A stretch of 7,097 nt of DNA from the IMG/VR virus record IMGVR_UViG_2671180846_000033, one strand, 5' to 3'. The notes beneath the pieces are model-generated. The model worked only from the letters and a program-made list of their open reading frames with translations. It was not told the origin of the DNA and ran no database searches. Below are positions 1 to 6,814 of this stretch, piece after piece; position 1 is the stretch's first letter; every line of letters begins with the position of its first letter. The translations under genes and the position numbers were made by a program. Source of the stretch: a virus (Duplodnaviria; Heunggongvirae; Uroviricota; Caudoviricetes).

Positions 1-495
1 TGGGGCTTTTCTCTATCTGCCGTTGGTGTTCATGCCCGAGGCAGATAGCCTCAAGCACCCGCAGCTATTCTACTTAACTTCCCATTACCTCGCCAATATG
101 AAATCGGTCAGAAAGACAGACGTCCCATAAGGACAACAACGGAAAAAGAGATTTTGCTTGATGCTATTTACCTCTGCACCATGAAGTTGCGCCAAAATCC
201 CAGTGGTGATAACAGGAATTTGGTTGTTGGTGATTGGGGAAAGAAGTACGTTAGACTGTGGGTTAGTTCATTGACATGATAGTTACCTGCCTTCAATTTC
301 CTAAGCAAGCGATGTAAACGATAATCAATATCAAATGTATTGACAGGTAAAATAATAACGATGTACCTTTGCTGATAACATATATCAGTCTTAAATCATA
401 ATGGAGGTAGATAAAATAACTAAACACACACAACAAATTTTTTATCAGTGACATAGCATATCTTAAGCATCCTTTAATGCTCATGGGGAGAACGC

Positions 496-1269
496 ATGAC
501 TAAACATATGGACATTCATTGTCAAACACGCATATTTAACTCAATTAACCATGACACCAAATATAAAATATGTATTTTTACTCCAAAAAACATTAAAAAA
601 AATAATGCAACTCTTTATATACTTGATGGGAATAGTGCCAACAATTACATTTCTGATATTCTGCCTGTTATTGATGCACTACCCAATCCACCAGTGTTAG
701 TTACACTTGGTTATGAATCTTGGAATAACCTTAGCATTCATCGCCGTGCTTACGATTATACTCCTGATGGTGAAAATGCTATTGTTGATAACTCTAAACC
801 AGCATGGATCTACTTTACTGGTGGAGGAAGCCAGTCTTTCCGAGAATTATTACTAACTCAGATCATGCCATGGGTTAGTACTATTGCTCCGAACAGTTCC
901 AGAATCGGTATATGGGGGCACTCGCTAGGTGCTATTTTTGTGCTTGATTGCTTAAAAAATAATTCATGCTTTAACTATTATTATATATCTGCACCATCAC
1001 TTCTATGGCAGAATGAAAGAATCATCAAGATAATTAAAGATGATATATCAGAATCAAAGCACACTAAAAGTATATGCTTGCTTAACGGAAATCTTAGCCT
1101 TGATTACTCCGCATCTTTATATCCTGAAGCCATCAAAGCGGAATCTGTTTTGAGAAATATTTTGACAGAAAAATACAGTAATTTTTCTATTGTACAATTT
1201 CCAGAGCTCAATCATCAGGAGACTTTCTCTGCTGCACTCTGGAATAGCATTATTCATTTCAGCATATAA
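496..1269 (+). CDS. Alpha/beta-hydrolase, putative esterase of the IroE/Fes (siderophore esterase / esterase D) type; no recognisable N-terminal signal peptide
   Basis: 257-aa ORF with ATG at 496 preceded by GGGGAG (485-490). Contains a G-H-S-L-G nucleophile elbow (Ser codon 922-924), an LDG motif near the N-terminus, AYDYTP, and a C-terminal ELNHQ histidine. The N-terminus is hydrophilic. The gene sits in visibly AT-rich DNA. Family call is from motif pattern only. Confidence 0.75.
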   Translation: MTKHMDIHCQTRIFNSINHDTKYKICIFTPKNIKKNNATLYILDGNSANNYISDILPVIDALPNPPVLVTLGYESWNNLSIHRRAYDYTPDGENAIVDNSKPAWIYFTGGGSQSFRELLLTQIMPWVSTIAPNSSRIGIWGHSLGAIFVLDCLKNNSCFNYYYISAPSLLWQNERIIKIIKDDISESKHTKSICLLNGNLSLDYSASLYPEAIKAESVLRNILTEKYSNFSIVQFPELNHQETFSAALWNSIIHFSI

Positions 1270-2049: not shown

Positions 2050-2805
2050 TCACTTTTCCGATACAACACGGCGGGAAGAATCAGTAATCTGTCGAACAAT
2101 ATCCCGGTGCTTGTTCAGCTCCCGCAGCGCGGCGCAGACTCGCTCCCACTTCTGAACATCACTTTTCGCCCTGCGCAGCGCCAGGTTTGCCCTGCGAAGG
2201 GACGGAAAAATCAGCTCATCTGCTTGCGTTTCGGTAAACGATGGCAACGGCTGCACAATGTCCGCCACAGTTTCTGTTTTAATTTCTTCCTGTGTTGCGG
2301 CTTCCCGGACTGGTAACGCAGCACCTGCTGGCTGAGGAAAGGCNNNNNNNNNNNNNNNNNNNNNNNNNNNNNNNNNNNNNNNNNNNNNNNNNNCGGATGC
2401 AGCTTCCGGCTCTGCCGGTAAATCAGCGCCCGGTATGCAGTAACGAAATTTACCGCCCTGATTCACGCGAATCAGACGCCCTTTGCTGATTACCATGGCC
2501 AGCGATGAATTCGCCCGGCGGGAGGTAATCCCGAACATCAGTGCCAGCTCATCCGCCGTTTGTGGGCCATGTTGTTCAATCGCCTCAGTCAGCATTTGCG
2601 CTGTCACTTTCGGTACCGGTGACACCGGTTCACTTTCACCAGCCTGAATCAGCCACCACATCGACCCCTTGTTATCCGCTTCACCGCGGCGCTTCAGTTT
2701 CCACAGTTCGTTGACCGCATCTTCACGGCTGATTCCAAGGCGGGCCGCCACTACCTGTGAAGAGGCTCTTTTCAGTGCTTTCAGTGCGTCAAATACGGTT
2801 TCCAT
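2050..2805 (-). CDS. Hypothetical phage protein with two winged-helix-like segments; interrupted by a 50-N run
   Basis: Track ORF 2050-2823 starts at TTG; in-frame ATG at 2805 is preceded by GGAGG. The protein reads plausibly on both sides of the N-run 2344-2393. No Walker motif seen; function unknown. Confidence 0.6.
2344..2393. other. Run of 50 N (masked or gap sequence) inside a CDS
   Basis: Directly visible in the sequence. Confidence 1.
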
Positions 2806-2838: not shown

Positions 2839-3399
2839 TCAAATAAAACCAGCTGCCTTCCGGCGTTCGTATTCCTGTTTCAGCCGCTCAATTGGCGTTG
2901 GCCCTTGCGGGTGTTTCGCCCCTTCCAGTTGTCGTCGCACTGGCGGAACACTCATCCCGTTACCAACATGCTTTGCCCATTTCGTCAGTTGCCGTTCTGC
3001 AAGTAGTTTTAACTCACCCTGCGTCATCTGGCGCTCAATCCCTCTGGTACGCATTTCGAGGCAGATGTGGTACAGCACAGGCTGTGGCCACGGGTATTTA
3101 TCACTCCCGTCGTATCGCCAGGATTCATTGCGCCAGCGCCGGTACTCTTCCATCACGGCATCCACCGTAAGACCAAATGGATTTGCCCCACTCTCCGAAA
3201 TCAGCGCAACAAACTCAGCCAGGTCCGGGGGCCACGTTTCACCCGCCCGGCAGCGGTCCATGCACTGACGGCAGACCAGACGGATTTGCTGTTCAGTCAT
3301 CGCACCAATCTGGGCAATCCAGAGCTTCGAAGGTGCGGCCCCGTTCTTCTGAGTCCAGCGGTTCGAATACACCTCCCCCATAAGCTCCCACAGCTTCCA
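2839..3399 (-). CDS. Replication protein P-like (lambda P family helicase-loader homologue); 5' end undetermined because of the N-run
   Basis: The translation matches my recollection of the lambda P central and C-terminal regions (MTEQQI, a PPDLAEFVAL segment, DKYPW, a TQGELKLLAERQL segment). The ORF-track start (TTG at 3495) lies in sequence that reads better in the O-like frame. The true start is either ATG at 3381 (GGGAG upstream) or inside the N-run. Confidence 0.65.
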   Translation of the reverse strand, partial: WKLWELMGEVYSNRWTQKNGAAPSKLWIAQIGAMTEQQIRLVCRQCMDRCRAGETWPPDLAEFVALISESGANPFGLTVDAVMEEYRRWRNESWRYDGSDKYPWPQPVLYHICLEMRTRGIERQMTQGELKLLAERQLTKWAKHVGNGMSVPPVRRQLEGAKHPQGPTPIERLKQEYERRKAAGFI

Positions 3400-3449
3400 N
3401 NNNNNNNNNNNNNNNNNNNNNNNNNNNNNNNNNNNNNNNNNNNNNNNNN
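3400..3449. other. Run of 50 N at the O-like/P-like gene junction
   Basis: Directly visible in the sequence. Confidence 1.
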
Positions 3450-4168
3450 GTGAAAACCTTCCCCTCCGCCATCCAGTAATCCCGGAATGCGGCAAGCTCA
3501 GCAGGTGTAAATTCCGGCTCAGGCAGAGCCATACCCCACACTGCTGCCCGTTGTCGAAAATCCGGCGACGGCTGCCAGACAGTAGTCATCGAAAATTTCC
3601 CGATCGGTTCGCTCAGGCCGTCCAGGTATTCAGGTTCGGCTGTCTGCAACGGCGCACCATGCGACTCACTGGTCGGAATACTCTCGCGTTCACGCACGTT
3701 ATGTGTGGGGTTTAATTCTTTTAGATCTGTATCTTTATTAGTTGCTTTTGTGTTTGCGTCATGTTCAAACACAACACCAACATTTGTTTGAACACCTGTT
3801 AAATCTCTCTCTTGTTTTGTTTGAACATATGCTTCCTTTCTGCTTCTTCTGGCCTGAACAGATGCTTTTCCGGCGGCTGATTTTTTGGTCAATTTTTCCC
3901 TGACTGATGCCAGATCTTCCTCAATCCGAAGATGCACCCATTCATCGCTGTTATCGCAAAAAAACTCCCGCAAGGATGGTTCCACATCAGCCCATCGCTC
4001 GTTAGTCAGACGGGAAATTTTTGCCAGCCTGTTTTTAGGTATTGGTTTCCCTGTTTGCCAGTAATTGAACATCAGCAACAAATACGCACCGTGCTCCTCT
4101 GCGGACAAATGCATGGTGTCAGCCAGGTAATCAGCTATGTACAGTTGCATGTATGGTAATGCGGCCAT
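3450..4168 (-). CDS. Replication initiator, DUF1376/YdaU-like (functional analogue of lambda O); 3' end undetermined (in or beyond the N-run)
   Basis: N-terminal segment [32 protein letters not shown] resembles DUF1376 proteins, followed by a low-complexity linker and a C-terminal domain. ATG at 4168 has GAGG 5 nt upstream; the track start at 4222 is a TTG. The frame stays open across the N-run to 3293, but that stretch overlaps convincing P-like coding. Confidence 0.65.
3762..3828. repeat. Iteron-like repeats inside the O-like gene (candidate replication origin)
   Basis: TGTTCAAACA (3762-3771) is the exact reverse complement of TGTTTGAACA, which occurs at 3785-3794 and again at 3818-3827 as part of TTTGTTTGAACA. 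The repeats lie in the AT-rich linker-coding part of the initiator gene. Confidence 0.45.
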
Positions 4169-4254
4169 AATTGCCTCATCTTGTGACGAACCATCCTCTG
4201 GTGATATTCTGTGATTCCCCAATCAACAGAATCAGCAGGGGTCTGGCATAAATA

Positions 4255-4692
4255 TCAATGCACCACAACAGACTCGCCGGATGACCCGCCGTCGCTGAAA
4301 TACGCTTTCCGGTAAACTGCCTGGACTGCATCATCATGCGCATCAATTGCCGTGCTCAACGCTTCCTGGGCCGCCAGTAATGCACGGCGCTCAACAGTGT
4401 CAAAAATACTGAGGTGATAACGCAGTTCACGCGGAAGAACAGTCAGGATAGCTGGAATTAGTGCCTGAATTTTTTCAACAGCATCAGGCGTATCCTTTTC
4501 AAGCCAGCGAAAAATATTTTGTATGTTCAATCCAATACCCTCTGTCGTAGAGGTGTCATGCATTGGTGGATAAGTCATTTCAAGCTCAAAATATGCTGTC
4601 GCTATATCATCAGCGATTTTTTTGCGCCCTACCCTCGGATAAAGCAGCCACGCATTCATCGCCATGCGGATGTGCTCATGCTTGATTTTCAT
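4255..4692 (-). CDS. ydaT: YdaT-like protein (CII functional analogue of YdaS/YdaT-type prophages)
   Basis: 145-aa ORF starting MKIKHEHI with a C-terminal segment LIPAILTVLPRELRYHLSIFDTVERRALLAAQEALSTAIDAHDDAVQAVYRKAYF that I recognise as YdaT-family. Its ATG (4692-4690) overlaps the upstream gene's TGA in an ATGA junction. Confidence 0.75.
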   Translation of the reverse strand: MKIKHEHIRMAMNAWLLYPRVGRKKIADDIATAYFELEMTYPPMHDTSTTEGIGLNIQNIFRWLEKDTPDAVEKIQALIPAILTVLPRELRYHLSIFDTVERRALLAAQEALSTAIDAHDDAVQAVYRKAYFSDGGSSGESVVVH

Positions 4693-4949
4693 GAATCAAC
4701 TCCCGCCGCTGCTTGTGCGTTAGCCTGATACTCAACAGGTAAACCATCGGTTGGATTAGGGTATTTATCAGGGCGCAATTCATGCGGAGTTACTCCCCAG
4801 TCAAGCGCCTCACATGCTGGTATAACCTCCTCCGCTGGCACTCGTTTTTTAAACCACCCACTTATGGTTTGCGGTGTTTTACCAAGACGACGCCCTAATT
4901 CTGATTGGCTCATTATTGACAGGATTTTCACTTGAGTACTTTTTTGCAT
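4689..4949 (-). CDS. ydaS: Cro-like HTH regulator, YdaS-like
   Basis: 86-aa ORF with ATG at 4949 preceded by GGAGGG. HTH segment SQSELGRRLGKTPQTISGW; divergent from the repressor gene. Confidence 0.7.
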   Translation of the reverse strand: MQKSTQVKILSIMSQSELGRRLGKTPQTISGWFKKRVPAEEVIPACEALDWGVTPHELRPDKYPNPTDGLPVEYQANAQAAAGVDS

Positions 4950-5075
4950 GTTTCCCTCCGAACTTTACGATGACACCGATAATTACAAATTTAAATTTAA
5001 ATTTCAACTTCTATTTGTAATGCCACTTATCAATTTTTTCTGTAGGATCGCGGAACTAGTTTACGAGGGGTGGTG
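4950..5075. promoter_or_regulatory. Divergent control region between the Cro-like and CI-like genes (OR-like)
   Basis: ATTACAAAT (4982-4990) and its reverse complement ATTTGTAAT (5013-5021) flank a palindromic (AAATTT)x3 tract (4987-5004). The 14-bp motif AATTACAAATTTAA (4981-4994) recurs at 6223-6236. Ribosome-binding sites for both flanking genes are present. Confidence 0.6.
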
Positions 5076-5468
5076 ATGATCTTTGTAAAACGCCTTCAGC
5101 AGGTGTTGCAGGAATTGAATATAAACCAGTCAGAGCTGGGAAGACGTCTTGGTGTAAAACCCCAATCCGTGCAAGGTTGGTTGAAAGGCGTGATGCCAAG
5201 AATGGATAAACTGGAAAAATTAGCAGAGCTCTCACAACATCCCGTCCATTGGTTCTTTATGGAAGAAGAAACTCTCGGCGATAAAATGGCTGTATCCAGT
5301 AATGACAACCAACCGCAACTTACAGAACAACAACGAAAAATCATATCGCTTTTAGATGAGTTACCTCAAAGCGACGCAGAGCAGATCATTCGTGATATGG
5401 AGCAAAAACGCGATTTCTATAAACGGAAACTTGAAGAGTTACTGCGGCAGAAAAACAAAACTGCCTGA
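5076..5468 (+). CDS. CI-like phage repressor, XRE-family HTH with coiled-coil-like C-terminus and no S24 peptidase domain
   Basis: The track ORF starts at GTG 5070; ATG at 5076 is preceded by GAGGGG (5065-5070). HTH segment NQSELGRRLGVKPQSVQGW; C-terminal 50 aa are charged and heptad-like. About 130 aa, too short for a LexA-type cleavage domain. Confidence 0.8.
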   Translation: MIFVKRLQQVLQELNINQSELGRRLGVKPQSVQGWLKGVMPRMDKLEKLAELSQHPVHWFFMEEETLGDKMAVSSNDNQPQLTEQQRKIISLLDELPQSDAEQIIRDMEQKRDFYKRKLEELLRQKNKTA

Positions 5469-5499
5469 TGCATTCCTTTTCTGGAACGAGCATCAGGCA
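5462..5499. terminator. Hairpin between the convergent repressor and higA genes (candidate bidirectional terminator)
   Basis: TGCCTGATGC (5462-5471) pairs with GCATCAGGCA (5490-5499), with inner TTCC/GGAA pairing. A T-rich tract follows on the minus strand (reverse complement of 5441-5461). Confidence 0.5.
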
Positions 5500-5514
5500 A
5501 ATGACTAGCAGATT

Positions 5515-5874
5515 TTATAATCCAACCAGGCTTTCCAGGGGGATACCAAATTGATTATGAAGACGGCGAATCATTGGTAACGTAAGGCTTCTGGTACCAT
5601 TCAACACCTCATAAACCCGATTTTTTTTCCCAATTGCGGGTTCCAAATCTTTCACAGTCAGCCCCTGCTGTTCCATGCGAAATCTTATAGCTTCAATTGG
5701 GGATGGTGGCTCAATGGGATAATGTTTTTTTTCATATTCCTCTATTAGCAAACACATCACCTCAAAAAAATCCCCCTCAGGCGTGTCAATTTCGGGCTCA
5801 TTGTCGAACATGGGTTCAACAGCACGCAACGCGGCTTCATAATCTTGCTCTGTACGAATAGGTTTGATGTTCAT
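5515..5874 (-). CDS. higA: HigA-type antitoxin (XRE HTH, type II TA)
   Basis: 119-aa ORF with C-terminal HTH LTVKDLEPAIGKKNRVYEVLNGTRSLTLPMIRRL. Starts 2 nt after the toxin stop, with GGAG upstream. Confidence 0.8.
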   Translation of the reverse strand: MNIKPIRTEQDYEAALRAVEPMFDNEPEIDTPEGDFFEVMCLLIEEYEKKHYPIEPPSPIEAIRFRMEQQGLTVKDLEPAIGKKNRVYEVLNGTRSLTLPMIRRLHNQFGIPLESLVGL

Positions 5875-5876
5875 GC

Positions 5877-6179
5877 TTACTCCAGTTCGATGGTATCAGC
5901 ATCAATAGCATCGTATTCCTTGTGGTTTCCGATGAATTTAACAAATACCCATCCTCGCTGATACGCAATTGCAACAATTAAACGGTAATGATTACCTTTT
6001 ATGTTGAATACCACGCGCCGGTTTTTCAATATACTGGCCGTTCGGTATTGTGCCTTAATGTCTGCTGGGCTTTTCCAGTCAGCTTTTGCCGCCTCATCCA
6101 CCCATGCCCTTAGCGGTTGTTCTGCATCAGGATTCTCCGCCCAAAAATCCCTGAGTGTTTTAACTGAGATAATCTTCAT
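5877..6179 (-). CDS. higB: HigB-type toxin (RelE/ParE superfamily)
   Basis: HigB-like pattern in the translation, including GNHYRLIV and KFIGNHKEYDAID. The track start (6224) is a TTG; the ATG at 6179 gives about 100 aa. Toxin precedes antitoxin, as in HigBA modules. Confidence 0.8.
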   Translation of the reverse strand: MKIISVKTLRDFWAENPDAEQPLRAWVDEAAKADWKSPADIKAQYRTASILKNRRVVFNIKGNHYRLIVAIAYQRGWVFVKFIGNHKEYDAIDADTIELE

Positions 6180-6190
6180 AACTGTATAGT

Positions 6191-6207
6191 AGTCCCATTT
6201 TGGGACT
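6191..6207. promoter_or_regulatory. Perfect 17-bp palindrome AGTCCCATTTTGGGACT just upstream of higB (candidate HigA/HigBA operator)
   Basis: Read directly from the sequence; lies 12-28 nt upstream of the higB ATG on the minus strand. Confidence 0.5.
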
Positions 6208-6222
6208 GATGCAACAGCCCGC

Positions 6223-6276
6223 AATTACAAATTTAATAATAAACATGTTGACCAGTTAAATTTTAATTTGTAAATT
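6223..6276 (+). promoter_or_regulatory. pL-like promoter/operator region for the rightward early operon (OL-like)
   Basis: Second copy of AATTACAAATTTAA (6223-6236); TTGACC (6248-6253), 17-bp spacer, TAAATT (6271-6276); inverted ATTTGTAA (6266-6273) overlaps the -10. Confidence 0.5.
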
Positions 6277-6457
6277 GTATCCATAAACCCACCCCGCCCC
6301 ACAGAACGCAGGGCAATACTTCGAGTTACCCGGCAGTGGTCAGGGGTTAAGTAGCCAGCCTGAGGCGTATGAACATGACGGCGGGGATTACGTTTAACTA
6401 TGCAGCAGGTTTTTTGTTCCGCTACCCCGGCGTTAAGGGGAAACAGAGGATTTCTCA

Positions 6458-6814
6458 GTGGGCGAAGTCAAACATCAGAATGGAAGGCATCCAGGGATCA
6501 GCAAAGAAACAGCGATGGCGCTTTATATTGATATCAGCGCCATTGCCGGACAGGTAAGAATTATCAGAGCGGTAACTAAGCGGTATGCGCCTTTACTTCA
6601 GAAAGTCTCTGGTGAGTGCACCGAAGATATTGTCAACGATTTCGTCATCAAACTGCGAGGACTCATCTTCAGTTACAAGGTGACCACAATTTTTGCAGAT
6701 GGCTCCCGCGAAACTGTCAGAGCCCTGCGGCTTAAAGGATGTGTCAAAGACTTAGCCACCACATTCTGGGCAAGAAAACTTGATTGTATTCATAACCAAT
6801 TTCCTCTCGAGTAA
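6458..6814 (+). CDS. Hypothetical early-left operon protein
   Basis: 118-aa ORF from GTG 6458 (AGAGGA 7 nt upstream) or about 100 aa from ATG 6515. No family recognised. Confidence 0.5.
   Translation: MGEVKHQNGRHPGISKETAMALYIDISAIAGQVRIIRAVTKRYAPLLQKVSGECTEDIVNDFVIKLRGLIFSYKVTTIFADGSRETVRALRLKGCVKDLATTFWARKLDCIHNQFPLE

What the first reader, a model, noticed from the sequence alone, without database searches (positions are those of the whole stretch)
6223..6276. Second copy of the 14-bp motif forms an OL/pL-like site next to the TA module
AATTACAAATTTAA (6223-6236) is identical to the OR copy, and an inverted ATTTGTAA (6266-6273) overlaps a candidate -10 (TTGACC-17-TAAATT). In both copies the motif also lies 30-45 nt upstream of a leftward gene (ydaS-like and higB). 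So it could either be the OL operator for the rightward operon or a shared element driving the leftward genes; I cannot distinguish these from sequence.
Basis: partly seen in the sequence, partly recalled or inferred. Interest (0 to 1): 0.5.

Follow-up and report, generated by a model that had tools for sequence, protein, structure and literature searches.

The report
Prophage left operator and early-left promoter
The repeated 14-base motif is part of the left operator and early-left promoter of an E. coli lambda-like prophage, where the prophage repressor most likely sits to silence the cell-division-inhibitor operon: a textbook arrangement, not yet tested for this repressor type.

Summary
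AATTACAAATTTAA occurs exactly at 4981-4994 and 6223-6236. The 8-mer core TTACAAAT occurs four times in the window, only in these two intergenic regions.

- 6223-6276 holds a conserved rightward promoter, TTGACC(6248-6253)-17-TAAATT(6271-6276).
- Two about 21-bp operators flank it: 6224-6244 upstream of the -35, and 6254-6274 inverted over the spacer and -10.
- OR mirrors this with operators at 4982-5002 and 5001-5021 on the leftward ydaS promoter.

The same unit follows every relative of the 130-aa repressor examined (E. coli, Salmonella, Sodalis, Serratia, Arsenophonus), including those without higBA. Plasmid higBA copies lack the motif and carry HigA palindromes instead. Heteroimmune sibling prophages carry their own OR motif at the same position. 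Homology to them starts at the predicted pL start (about 6286).

CP-933P (PL933P) and Qin (dicBp) are tested precedents. The reading that the motif drives the leftward genes is not supported for higB, which has its own promoter and HigA palindrome.

This is a new member of a known kind, of low interest. One open twist: the upstream operator sits where plasmid higBA promoters carry a second HigA site.

The parts
6224..6244 (+). Upstream left operator (here O_L2), ATTACAAATTTAATAATAAAC. It contains the finding's 14-mer and ends 3 nt before the pL -35. It lies 9 nt beyond the -35 of the divergent higB promoter.
   Evidence: Third-best of about 14000 positions with a 21-bp matrix trained only on non-E. 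coli relatives (21.9 bits; the best hit per simulated sequence had median 6.7 and 95th percentile 14.2). Core conserved in 9 of 10 aligned lineages.
6248..6253 (+). pL -35 hexamer, TTGACC.
   Evidence: Promoter scan. TTGA is invariant and TTGAC nearly invariant across 10 lineages.
6254..6274 (-). Promoter-proximal left operator (here O_L1). It reads TTTACAAATTAAAATTTAACT on the minus strand and covers the pL spacer and the first bases of the -10.
   Evidence: Second-best matrix hit in the window, 25.6 bits. ATTTGTA is invariant in 10 lineages.
6271..6276 (+). pL -10 hexamer, TAAATT (TAGATT in most relatives). Predicted start near 6283.
   Evidence: The start site is inferred from the usual spacing and was not measured.
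6286..6400 (+). Conserved untranslated leader of the early-left operon, shared with heteroimmune prophages. It marks the right edge of the immunity-specific segment.
   Evidence: Matches in 3080 of 5426 E. coli genomes begin at window 6286-6292. Also found in Sodalis, Arsenophonus and Salmonella behind different operators.
4982..5002 (+). Right operator O_R1, ATTACAAATTTAAATTTAAAT. It overlaps the -10 and spacer of the leftward pR.
   Evidence: Best matrix hit in the window, 30.9 bits. ATT.CA.A is invariant in 12 lineages.
5001..5021 (-). Right operator O_R2, ATTACAAATAGAAGTTGAAAT on the minus strand. It covers the pR -35 and abuts the pRM -35. With O_R1 it forms a 40-bp imperfect palindrome.
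   Evidence: Fourth-best matrix hit, 17.8 bits. Inverted repeat I7, arms 4982-5001 and 5002-5021, 80% complementary.
4979..5007 (-). pR, the promoter of the ydaS-like cro analogue: TTGAAA (5007..5002), 17-nt spacer, AATTAT (4984..4979) with an upstream TG.
   Evidence: Promoter scan. The -35 is conserved as TTGAAA, TTGCAA or TTGTAA across lineages.
5020..5048 (+). Candidate pRM for the repressor gene: weak -35 ATGCCA (5020-5025), 17-nt spacer, -10 TAGGAT (5043-5048).
   Evidence: Found by inspection. TGTA...T of the -10 region is invariant in 12 lineages. The consensus scan did not report it, so it is inferred.
5076..5468 (+). Prophage repressor gene, 130 aa: P22 c2-like HTH domain, disordered linker, two C-terminal helices, no peptidase domain.
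   Evidence: Pfam HTH_3. Full-length but sub-threshold match to the DicA model. AlphaFold2 model and Foldseek matches to P22 c2 at 1.1-1.2 A. Annotated start at 5076.
4689..4949 (-). ydaS-like Cro analogue, first gene of the early-right operon.
   Evidence: Pfam YdaS_toxin and HTH_3.
6186..6214 (-). higB promoter: TTGCAT (6214..6209), 17-nt spacer, TACTAT (6191..6186). The palindrome AGTCCCATTTTGGGACT (6191-6207) fills the spacer and is the presumed HigA operator. The -10 ends 6 nt before the ATG at 6179, so the mRNA is probably leaderless.
   Evidence: Found by inspection. The same palindrome type occurs once or twice in front of plasmid higBA homologues. It is inferred, not reported by the scan.
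5515..6179 (-). higB (5877-6179) and higA (5515-5874), a toxin-antitoxin cassette inserted between the repressor gene and OL.
   Evidence: Pfam HigB_toxin at 4.8e-33 and HTH_3. RefSeq annotation. In Arsenophonus the repressor stop and OL are only about 68 nt apart.

Best explanation
Window 6223-6276 is the left operator and early-left promoter (OL/pL) of a lambdoid, Qin/Rac-like E. coli prophage.

What the sequence shows:
- A sigma-70 promoter, TTGACC-17-TAAATT, points rightward. It leads into a conserved leader and the ydfC-dicF-dicB-exonuclease-integrase operon.
- Two operators of about 21 bp flank it. They are of the same kind as the two at OR, with consensus ATTACAAATTWAAWTTTAAAT. This is a pseudo-palindrome with a strong outer half, ATTACAAAT, and a degenerate inner half.
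- One operator covers the spacer and -10. The other sits just upstream of the -35.

What is inferred:
- Dimers of the 130-aa repressor encoded at 5076-5468 bind these sites, probably cooperatively. The repressor has a P22 c2-like HTH and a helical C-terminal oligomerisation module.
- Binding excludes RNA polymerase from pL in the lysogen, exactly as at the mirrored pR.
- The site next to the weak pRM -35 may activate repressor synthesis.
- The Cro-like YdaS protein probably uses the same sites.
- OL and OR lie about 1.27 kb apart and may be looped together through repressor oligomers.

The higBA cassette is cargo inserted between the repressor gene and OL. It has its own HigA-controlled promoter.
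For: 1. Four sites only. TTACAAAT occurs exactly four times in the window, two at OR and two at OL. A 21-bp matrix trained only on Salmonella, Sodalis, Serratia and Arsenophonus sites ranks exactly these four first. Their scores are 30.9, 25.6, 21.9 and 17.8, the next independent hit is 10.8, and the 95th percentile of the simulated best hit is 14.2. The same four sites are the top hits in 19.6 kb of the matching E2865 prophage.

2. Mirror architecture. pR and pL face outward, and each has one operator on the spacer and -10 and one upstream of or on the -35.

3. Conservation with the repressor, independent of higBA. The unit TTGACn-17-TAGATT with both operators is present next to repressor homologues that lack higBA: Arsenophonus L021, L026, L027 and L028, Sodalis L016 and Serratia L019. 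It is also present in Salmonella L030 and L031, where rearrangement has moved it about 7 kb away, still in front of the early-left leader.

4. Absence from higBA without the repressor. Plasmid higBA homologues (73-81% nucleotide identity) lose homology at window 6182 or 6207 and carry GTCCCA-N3-TGGGAC palindromes instead.

5. Immunity specificity. Heteroimmune siblings with the same gene order carry their own OR motif at the same pL position: GTTTAGT in the CP-933P type L022 and ATCAAAAC in L024. Similarity to the window starts at 6286-6292, right after the predicted start site.

6. A matching protein. The recognition-helix region K28-W35 is invariant across homologues that are only 47-89% identical overall, which fits the conserved operator. 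The N-terminal domain superimposes on the operator-bound P22 c2 domain at 1.1-1.2 A. The C-terminus resembles that of PaaR2.

7. Experimental precedent. In CP-933P, PaaR2 and YdaS repress PL933P about 100-fold through OL sites similar to OR (PMC8630535). In Qin, DicA represses dicBp 22-fold, with operator sets between dicA and dicC and between dicA and dicBp (PMC10448788).
Against: - No binding or transcription data exist for this repressor type. Every functional step is inferred from sequence and analogy.
- Only two operators per side are detectable, not three as in lambda or CP-933P. No third site is found over pRM (best score -7.3).
- The operators are AT-rich, and parts of them coincide with promoter elements (the -10 edge and the pR -35). 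Some of the conservation could therefore reflect promoter constraints rather than repressor contacts.
- The sites used to train the matrix are orthologous to the window's sites, so the matrix test is not fully independent.
- Spacing between the two sites differs between OR and OL. Core start-to-start distance is 32 bp at OR and 43-45 bp at OL, so the binding geometry is unresolved.
- The repressor misses the curated DicA cut-off (49.9 against 101 bits).
Confidence: 0.87

Rival explanations
1. The motif is a shared cis element that serves the leftward genes. It would act as a promoter, UP-like or activator site for ydaS and higB rather than as an operator for the rightward operon.
For: Both exact copies lie 32 and 44 nt from a leftward start codon. 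The OL copy lies about -45 to -58 relative to the predicted higB start. Plasmid higBA promoters carry a second HigA palindrome at that position.
Against: - At OR the copy overlaps the -10 of pR, which is a repressing position.
- higB has a complete promoter and a HigA palindrome of its own, and plasmid higBA homologues lack the motif.
- Relatives keep the OL copy with no leftward gene next to it: Arsenophonus, Sodalis, Serratia and Salmonella L030 and L031.
Confidence: 0.06
2. The motif is bound by HigA or the HigBA complex, so the toxin-antitoxin module cross-regulates the prophage switch at OR and at its own upstream region.
For: HigA is an HTH protein encoded next to the OL copy. In 148 E. 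coli complete genomes the repressor and higBA always occur together.
Against: - The conserved element at higBA promoters is GTCCCA-N3-TGGGAC, which is unrelated to the motif and absent from OR.
- The motif persists in six or more lineages with no higBA and is absent where higBA occurs alone.
Confidence: 0.02
3. The repeat is a chance match between two AT-rich intergenic regions and has no function.
For: Some exact 14-mer repeat occurs in about 20% of simulated 7-kb sequences. Both regions have only 34% G+C.
Against: - Four exact cores occurred in 0 of 1000 simulations, and a shared 14-mer between the two segments in 8 of 20000.
- The sites are conserved in position from E. coli to Arsenophonus, although the repressors are only about 50% identical.
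Confidence: 0.01

Closest known systems
PL933P with OL1-OL3 of cryptic prophage CP-933P (PaaR2 / YdaS / YdaT switch, E. coli O157:H7; PMC8630535)
   Same: - Same gene order: ydaT and ydaS leftward, then OR, the repressor, a toxin-antitoxin module, pL, and the same conserved leader.
- The operator motif is repeated at OR and pL.
- The pL position is identical relative to the leader.
- An exact YdaT site, TTGATT-N6-AATCAA, lies at the ydaS/ydaT junction here too.
- Repression of PL933P by the repressor and by YdaS was shown experimentally.
   Different: - Different repressor: only the C-terminal 56 residues align with PaaR2, at 25% identity.
- Different operator: GTTTAGTAA-type against ATTACAAAT-type.
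- Two detectable sites per side here, against three or four there.
- The toxin-antitoxin module here is higBA, in the opposite orientation with its own promoter. It is not co-transcribed with the repressor.
Qin prophage dicA-dicC immunity locus and dicBp (E. coli K-12; PMC10448788, PMC3441716)
   Same: - The downstream operon carries ydfC, dicB and DUF1482 in the matching genome.
- The repressor aligns end to end with the DicA model (residues 3-129 against positions 6-132 of 135).
- The operator overlaps the -10 of the cro-side promoter, and the repressor promoter is weak and probably activated.
- There is no peptidase domain, so induction by an antirepressor is likely. This is known for DicA, where Rem is the antirepressor.
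   Different: - The score is below the curated DicA cut-off (49.9 against 101 bits).
- The DicA operator Oc is TTGTTAGTCATAACTAACAA, which is unrelated in sequence.
- The cro analogue here is YdaS-type, and a YdaT gene is present.
Bacteriophage lambda OL/pL and OR/pR/pRM
   Same: - Outward-facing early promoters on both sides of the repressor gene, each overlapped by copies of one operator.
- A cargo slot between the repressor gene and OL (rexAB in lambda, higBA here).
- The immunity-specific segment ends just inside the pL transcript.
   Different: - The repressor is not LexA-like or self-cleaving.
- Two rather than three sites per side.
- Operators of about 21 bp with one degenerate half.
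- No N gene and no boxA/boxB next to pL in this window.

Membership tests
Lambdoid left operator / early-left promoter (OL/pL) | It lies on the side of the repressor gene opposite OR, at the edge of the immunity-specific segment. | tested here: met
   The order is OR (4982-5021), repressor (5076-5468), higBA cargo, OL (6224-6274). Homology to heteroimmune prophages starts at 6286-6292.
Lambdoid left operator / early-left promoter (OL/pL) | It contains a sigma-70 promoter pointing away from the repressor gene into the early-left operon. | tested here: met
   TTGACC-17-TAAATT lies on the + strand and is conserved in 10 lineages. Downstream lie ydfC, dicB, the exonuclease and the integrase. Promoter activity itself was not measured.
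Lambdoid left operator / early-left promoter (OL/pL) | It carries multiple copies of the same operator sequence as OR, overlapping the promoter. | tested here: met
   The two OL and two OR sites are the top four matrix hits in the window. The exact 14-mer is shared.
Lambdoid left operator / early-left promoter (OL/pL) | The operator sequence is immunity-specific: heteroimmune relatives carry a different motif at the same place, matching their own OR. | tested here: met
   L022 has GTTTAGT and L024 has ATCAAAAC, each at both OR and pL. The window's matrix finds no site in them.
Lambdoid left operator / early-left promoter (OL/pL) | Three tandem operators per side, as in lambda, P22 and CP-933P. 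| tested here: not met
   Only two sites per side score above background in the window and in every relative. The best candidate over pRM scores -7.3.
Lambdoid left operator / early-left promoter (OL/pL) | The repressor binds the sites and represses pL in vivo. | not testable with these tools
   This needs EMSA or footprinting and reporter fusions. It has been shown only for sibling systems (PMC8630535, PMC10448788).
DicA-type repressor locus (Qin) | The repressor scores above the curated NCBIfam DicA cut-off (NF007257). | tested here: not met
   49.9 bits against a cut-off of 101, although the alignment is full-length.
DicA-type repressor locus (Qin) | The operator is related to Oc, TTGTTAGTCATAACTAACAA. 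| tested here: not met
   The consensus here is ATTACAAATTWAAWTTTAAAT. The Oc sequence comes from PMC3441716.
CP-933P-type YdaS/YdaT switch | YdaS-like and YdaT-like genes lie divergent from the repressor, with a YdaT site TTGATT-N6-AATCAA. | tested here: met
   Pfam YdaS_toxin and YdaT_toxin. Exact site at 4682-4699.
CP-933P-type YdaS/YdaT switch | The repressor is PaaR2 and the operators are of GTTTAGTAA type. | tested here: not met
   Only C-terminal similarity at 25% identity. The motif is different.
HigA autoregulatory operator | The site is a palindrome of the type found at higBA promoters, and it travels with higBA. | tested here: not met
   higBA promoters carry GTCCCA-N3-TGGGAC. The 14-mer is absent from plasmid higBA loci and present in lineages without higBA.

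The most novel reading that the evidence does not exclude
The upstream left operator (6224-6244) does double duty.

- It sits between two back-to-back promoters, pL and the higB promoter, whose -35 hexamers are 33 bp apart.
- It occupies the position where plasmid higBA promoters carry their second HigA palindrome.
- Occupancy by the prophage repressor could therefore tune higBA transcription.
- Toxin-antitoxin expression would then report whether the prophage is lysogenic or induced.
- This would be a wiring different from CP-933P, where the toxin-antitoxin genes are simply co-transcribed with the repressor.
Probability: 0.2. Interest if true: 0.45.

Novelty: new member of a known kind. Interest (0 to 1): 0.2.

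Why it matters
- It assigns function to two intergenic regions of a prophage carried by about 150 complete E. coli genomes, many of them O26, O103 or O111 Shiga-toxin strains.
- It defines the operator, ATTACAAATTWAAWTTTAAAT, of an uncharacterised DicA/PaaR2-like immunity type that reaches from E. coli to insect symbionts.
- It predicts which promoter must be derepressed for dicF and dicB expression in these strains.
- It shows that the slot between the repressor gene and OL repeatedly takes up toxin-antitoxin or defence cargo: higBA here, paaA2-parE2, PaaA2 plus TM2, and a PLD nuclease in relatives.
- None of this changes the textbook picture.

Tried and rejected
- **Rfam.** A scan of the whole window at E up to 1 found nothing at 6223-6500.
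- **Leader structure.** RNAalifold on 11 diverse copies of the conserved leader gave only a 3-pair stem with no covariation. An RNA-structure reading of the leader is therefore unsupported.
- **Short matrix.** A 14-bp matrix built from OR sites alone was too unspecific. Its top window hit was inside ydaT, although 4980 and 6222 ranked second and third. I replaced it with the 21-bp matrix.
- **One dimer across two cores.** I considered a single dimer spanning two distant cores placed 3 and 4 helical turns apart. The OL spacing varies between 43 and 45 bp among lineages and OR is 32 bp. Each core also extends into its own 21-bp pseudo-palindrome. Four separate operators fit better.
- **Third operator.** A search over pRM found none.
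- **More relatives.** The genome-contig scan returned only 5 extra loci, all Arsenophonus or Phlomobacter.
- **E. coli natural experiment.** Within E. coli complete genomes there is none, because the repressor and higBA always co-occur.
- **Literature.** Searches for the motif strings and for higBA in lambdoid immunity regions found nothing on this repressor type.
- **Other promoter hit.** The scan hit ATGACA-16-TAAATT at 4970-4997 (+) is not conserved in relatives, so I did not adopt it as pRM.

Full report
**1. Observation.**

The sequence statements are correct.
- AATTACAAATTTAA is exact at 4981-4994 and 6223-6236.
- The 8-mer core TTACAAAT occurs exactly four times in the window: 4983-4990 (+), 5013-5020 (-), 6225-6232 (+) and 6266-6273 (-).
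- The promoter scan reports TTGACC (6248-6253), a 17-nt spacer and TAAATT (6271-6276) on the + strand.

On its own a 14-mer repeat is weak evidence, because 201 of 1000 Markov simulations of the window contain some exact 14-mer repeat. The context makes it significant. A shared 14-mer between these two intergenic segments arose in 8 of 20000 simulations at local composition. Four copies of the core arose in 0 of 1000 (mean 0.43).

**2. Context.**

Window 4900-6500 is 100% identical to a prophage of E. coli E2865 and related strains. The window layout, from Pfam and the RefSeq annotation:

| Coordinates | Strand | Feature |
|---|---|---|
| 1621-2049 | - | DUF977 |
| about 3293-4222 | - | DUF1376-type replication protein (DUF1627 and a P-like gene lie between it and DUF977) |
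| 4255-4692 | - | ydaT |
| 4689-4949 | - | ydaS-like cro analogue |
| 4950-5075 | | 126-bp OR region |
| 5076-5468 | + | 130-aa HTH repressor |
| 5515-5874 | - | higA |
| 5877-6179 | - | higB |
| 6223-6276 | | the finding |
| 6286 to about 6400 | + | unannotated conserved leader |

In E2865, ydfC, dicB, DUF1482, the exonuclease and the integrase follow on the + strand. This is the mirror image of lambda's map. The cro side runs leftward and the early-left (dicB) side runs rightward.

**3. Anatomy.**

Aligning 34 sites from 9 OR and 8 OL lineages shows that each core extends into a site of about 21 bp, ATTACAAATTWAAWTTTAAAT. Positions T1, C3, A4, T7 and A17 are invariant. The site is a pseudo-palindrome, ATTACAAAT-N3-ATTTAAAAT, with a strong outer half and a degenerate inner half.

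A matrix trained only on the non-E. coli sites picks exactly four sites in the window:

| Site | Coordinates | Strand | Score (bits) |
|---|---|---|---|
| O_R1 | 4982-5002 | + | 30.9 |
| O_L1 | 6254-6274 | - | 25.6 |
| O_L2 | 6224-6244 | + | 21.9 |
| O_R2 | 5001-5021 | - | 17.8 |

The next independent hit scores 10.8. The best hit per simulated sequence has a median of 6.7 and a 95th percentile of 14.2. The same four sites are the top hits in 19.6 kb of the E2865 prophage.

At OR:
- The leftward promoter is TTGAAA (5007..5002), a 17-nt spacer and AATTAT (4984..4979), with an upstream TG.
- O_R1 covers its -10 and spacer, and O_R2 covers its -35.
- O_R2 abuts the weak -35 (ATGCCA, 5020-5025) of a candidate repressor promoter whose -10 (TAGGAT, 5043-5048) is conserved.

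At OL:
- O_L1 covers the spacer and -10 edge of pL.
- O_L2 ends 3 nt upstream of the -35.

pR and pL are recognisably the same promoter-operator unit in opposite orientations.

**4. Comparative tests.**

*(a) Relatives of the repressor.* Homologues at 47-89% identity were located in E. coli, Salmonella, Sodalis, Serratia, Arsenophonus and Phlomobacter. OR aligns across all of them, with the operator and promoter columns invariant.

*(b) The OL/pL unit travels with the repressor.*
- With higBA: E. coli L002 and L015, and Salmonella L005.
- Without higBA: Arsenophonus L021, L026, L027 and L028, Sodalis L016, and Serratia L019.
- Also without higBA: Salmonella L030 and L031. There a rearrangement has moved the early-left operon about 7 kb away, and pL with both operators moved with it.

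*(c) higBA without this repressor.*
- It occurs on E. coli plasmids at 73-81% nucleotide identity.
- Homology stops at window 6182 or 6207.
- The upstream DNA carries one or two GTCCCA-N3-TGGGAC palindromes and no phage motif.

*(d) Heteroimmune siblings.*
- They have the same gene order but a different motif, present both at their OR and at the same pL position. L022, the CP-933P type, has GTTTAGT. L024 has ATCAAAAC.
- Similarity between these prophages and the window begins at 6286-6292, a few bases past the predicted pL start.

Together these results show three things. The element belongs to the immunity system. It is specific to the repressor type. It serves the rightward operon.

**5. The binding protein (inferred).**

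- The repressor has a five-helix HTH domain (residues 1-61, pLDDT about 90). It superimposes on the operator-bound P22 c2 N-terminal domain at 1.1-1.2 A.
- A disordered linker follows (residues 66-80), then two C-terminal helices (84-94 and 100-127). There is no peptidase domain.
- The segment K28-W35, in the helix 29-36 of the model that I take to be the recognition helix, is invariant across the family, which matches the conserved operator.
- The protein aligns end to end with the DicA model but falls below its cut-off.
- Its C-terminal part resembles that of PaaR2, which is reported to octamerise (PMC8630535).

I therefore infer several things. Dimers bind each 21-bp site. Neighbouring sites are bound cooperatively. 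OL and OR may be looped together. Induction probably works through an antirepressor rather than self-cleavage, by analogy with DicA and Rem (PMC10448788). None of this was tested. By analogy with CP-933P, the YdaS-like protein probably competes for the same sites.

**6. Relation to higBA.**

- higB has its own promoter on the minus strand: TTGCAT (6214..6209), a 17-nt spacer and TACTAT (6191..6186).
- The palindrome AGTCCCATTTTGGGACT (6191-6207) fills the spacer.
- The -10 ends 6 nt before the ATG at 6179, so the mRNA is probably leaderless.
- Plasmid homologues have a second palindrome 6-7 nt upstream of the -35. In the prophage that position is occupied by O_L2.

This rules out the motif as the driver of higB. 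It leaves open that repressor bound at O_L2 modulates the higB promoter, which is the novel case.

**7. Known systems.**

- The closest tested system is CP-933P. There PaaR2 and YdaS footprint OR, and both repress PL933P about 100-fold through OL sites similar to OR (PMC8630535).
- In Qin, DicA represses dicBp 22-fold, and operator sets lie between dicA and dicC and between dicA and dicBp (PMC10448788). The DicA operator Oc, TTGTTAGTCATAACTAACAA, is unrelated in sequence (PMC3441716).
- An exact YdaT site, TTGATT-N6-AATCAA (consensus from PMC9986795), lies at 4682-4699. This places the window in the same switch family as CP-933P.

The present locus is therefore a new immunity specificity of a known architecture. 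I found no paper on this repressor type or its operator in the searchable library.

**8. Verdict and caveats.**

- Confidence that this is the repressor-controlled early-left promoter and operator is about 0.87. Confidence in the detailed stoichiometry, cooperativity and looping is much lower.
- All functional statements rest on sequence, conservation and analogy.
- The operators are AT-rich and overlap promoter elements.
- The matrix was trained on orthologous sites, so the matrix test is not fully independent.
- Only two sites per side are detectable.
- Novelty: a new member of a known kind. Interest is low (0.2).

Noticed in passing
window 6286-6400 (+): There is a strongly conserved, unannotated leader right after the predicted pL start (CAATACTTCGAGTTACC ... 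AAGTAGCCAGCCTGAGGCGTATGAACATGACGGC). It occurs in 3080 of 5426 complete E. coli genomes. It also occurs in Sodalis, Arsenophonus, Salmonella and several temperate E. coli phages, behind different immunity types. It has no Rfam match, no covariation-supported structure and no conserved ORF. In most Arsenophonus copies a boxA (CGCTCTTTAAC) follows, and several also carry a boxB-like hairpin (TCGCTGAAAAAGCGA). The window has neither. Its function is unknown.
   Followed up: partly
window 4682-4699: TTGATTTTCATGAATCAA is an exact match to the published YdaT (CII-analogue) operator TTGATT-N6-AATCAA. It straddles the ydaS stop and the ydaT start. The position resembles lambda pRE, so it could drive + strand transcription antisense through ydaS into the repressor gene (consensus from PMC9986795).
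   Followed up: partly
window 6179-6214 (-); L013 2150-2250; L014 2153-2220: higB appears leaderless in the prophage and in plasmid L014, because the -10 ends 6-7 nt before the ATG. Plasmid L013 has a 27-nt leader with a Shine-Dalgarno sequence. The prophage keeps one GTCCCA-N3-TGGGAC palindrome, whereas the plasmids have two.
   Followed up: partly
L030 100-3230 and 14600-20300; L031 1-2420 and 14600-20400: In two Salmonella prophages with this repressor family the early-left operon (DUF1391, KilR, YdaE) and its pL/OL lie beyond the replication genes. The nin-Q-lysis genes lie downstream of the repressor. This is a large rearrangement relative to the window.
   Followed up: partly
window 5469-6222; L008 4397-5780; L010 4394-5049; L022 1888-2379: The slot between the repressor gene and OL repeatedly holds different toxin-antitoxin or defence-like cargo. 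It holds higBA here, paaA2-parE2 in the CP-933P type, PaaA2 plus a TM2 protein in Salmonella Javiana, and a PLD-family protein in S. diarizonae.
   Followed up: no
window 1-60 (-): There is a partial match to the sok antitoxin RNA (RF01794, 52.9 bits, E 6.5e-10, just under the gathering score of 59). It is cut off by the window end, which suggests a hok/sok module at the left edge.
   Followed up: no
window 6593-6793 (-) and 6458-6814 (+): The ECs_2282-family zinc-ribbon gene annotated in E2865 carries an in-frame stop in the window. A 118-aa ORF with no Pfam match overlaps it on the opposite strand.
   Followed up: no
window 2344-2393 and 3400-3449: Two runs of 50 N interrupt the DUF1627 gene and the replication genes. 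They are masked or unresolved stretches.
   Followed up: no
window 496-1269 (+): An AT-rich 257-aa ORF has only a weak esterase match (PF00756, E 0.005). It lies on the strand opposite to the phage genes on its right and is probably cargo.
   Followed up: no
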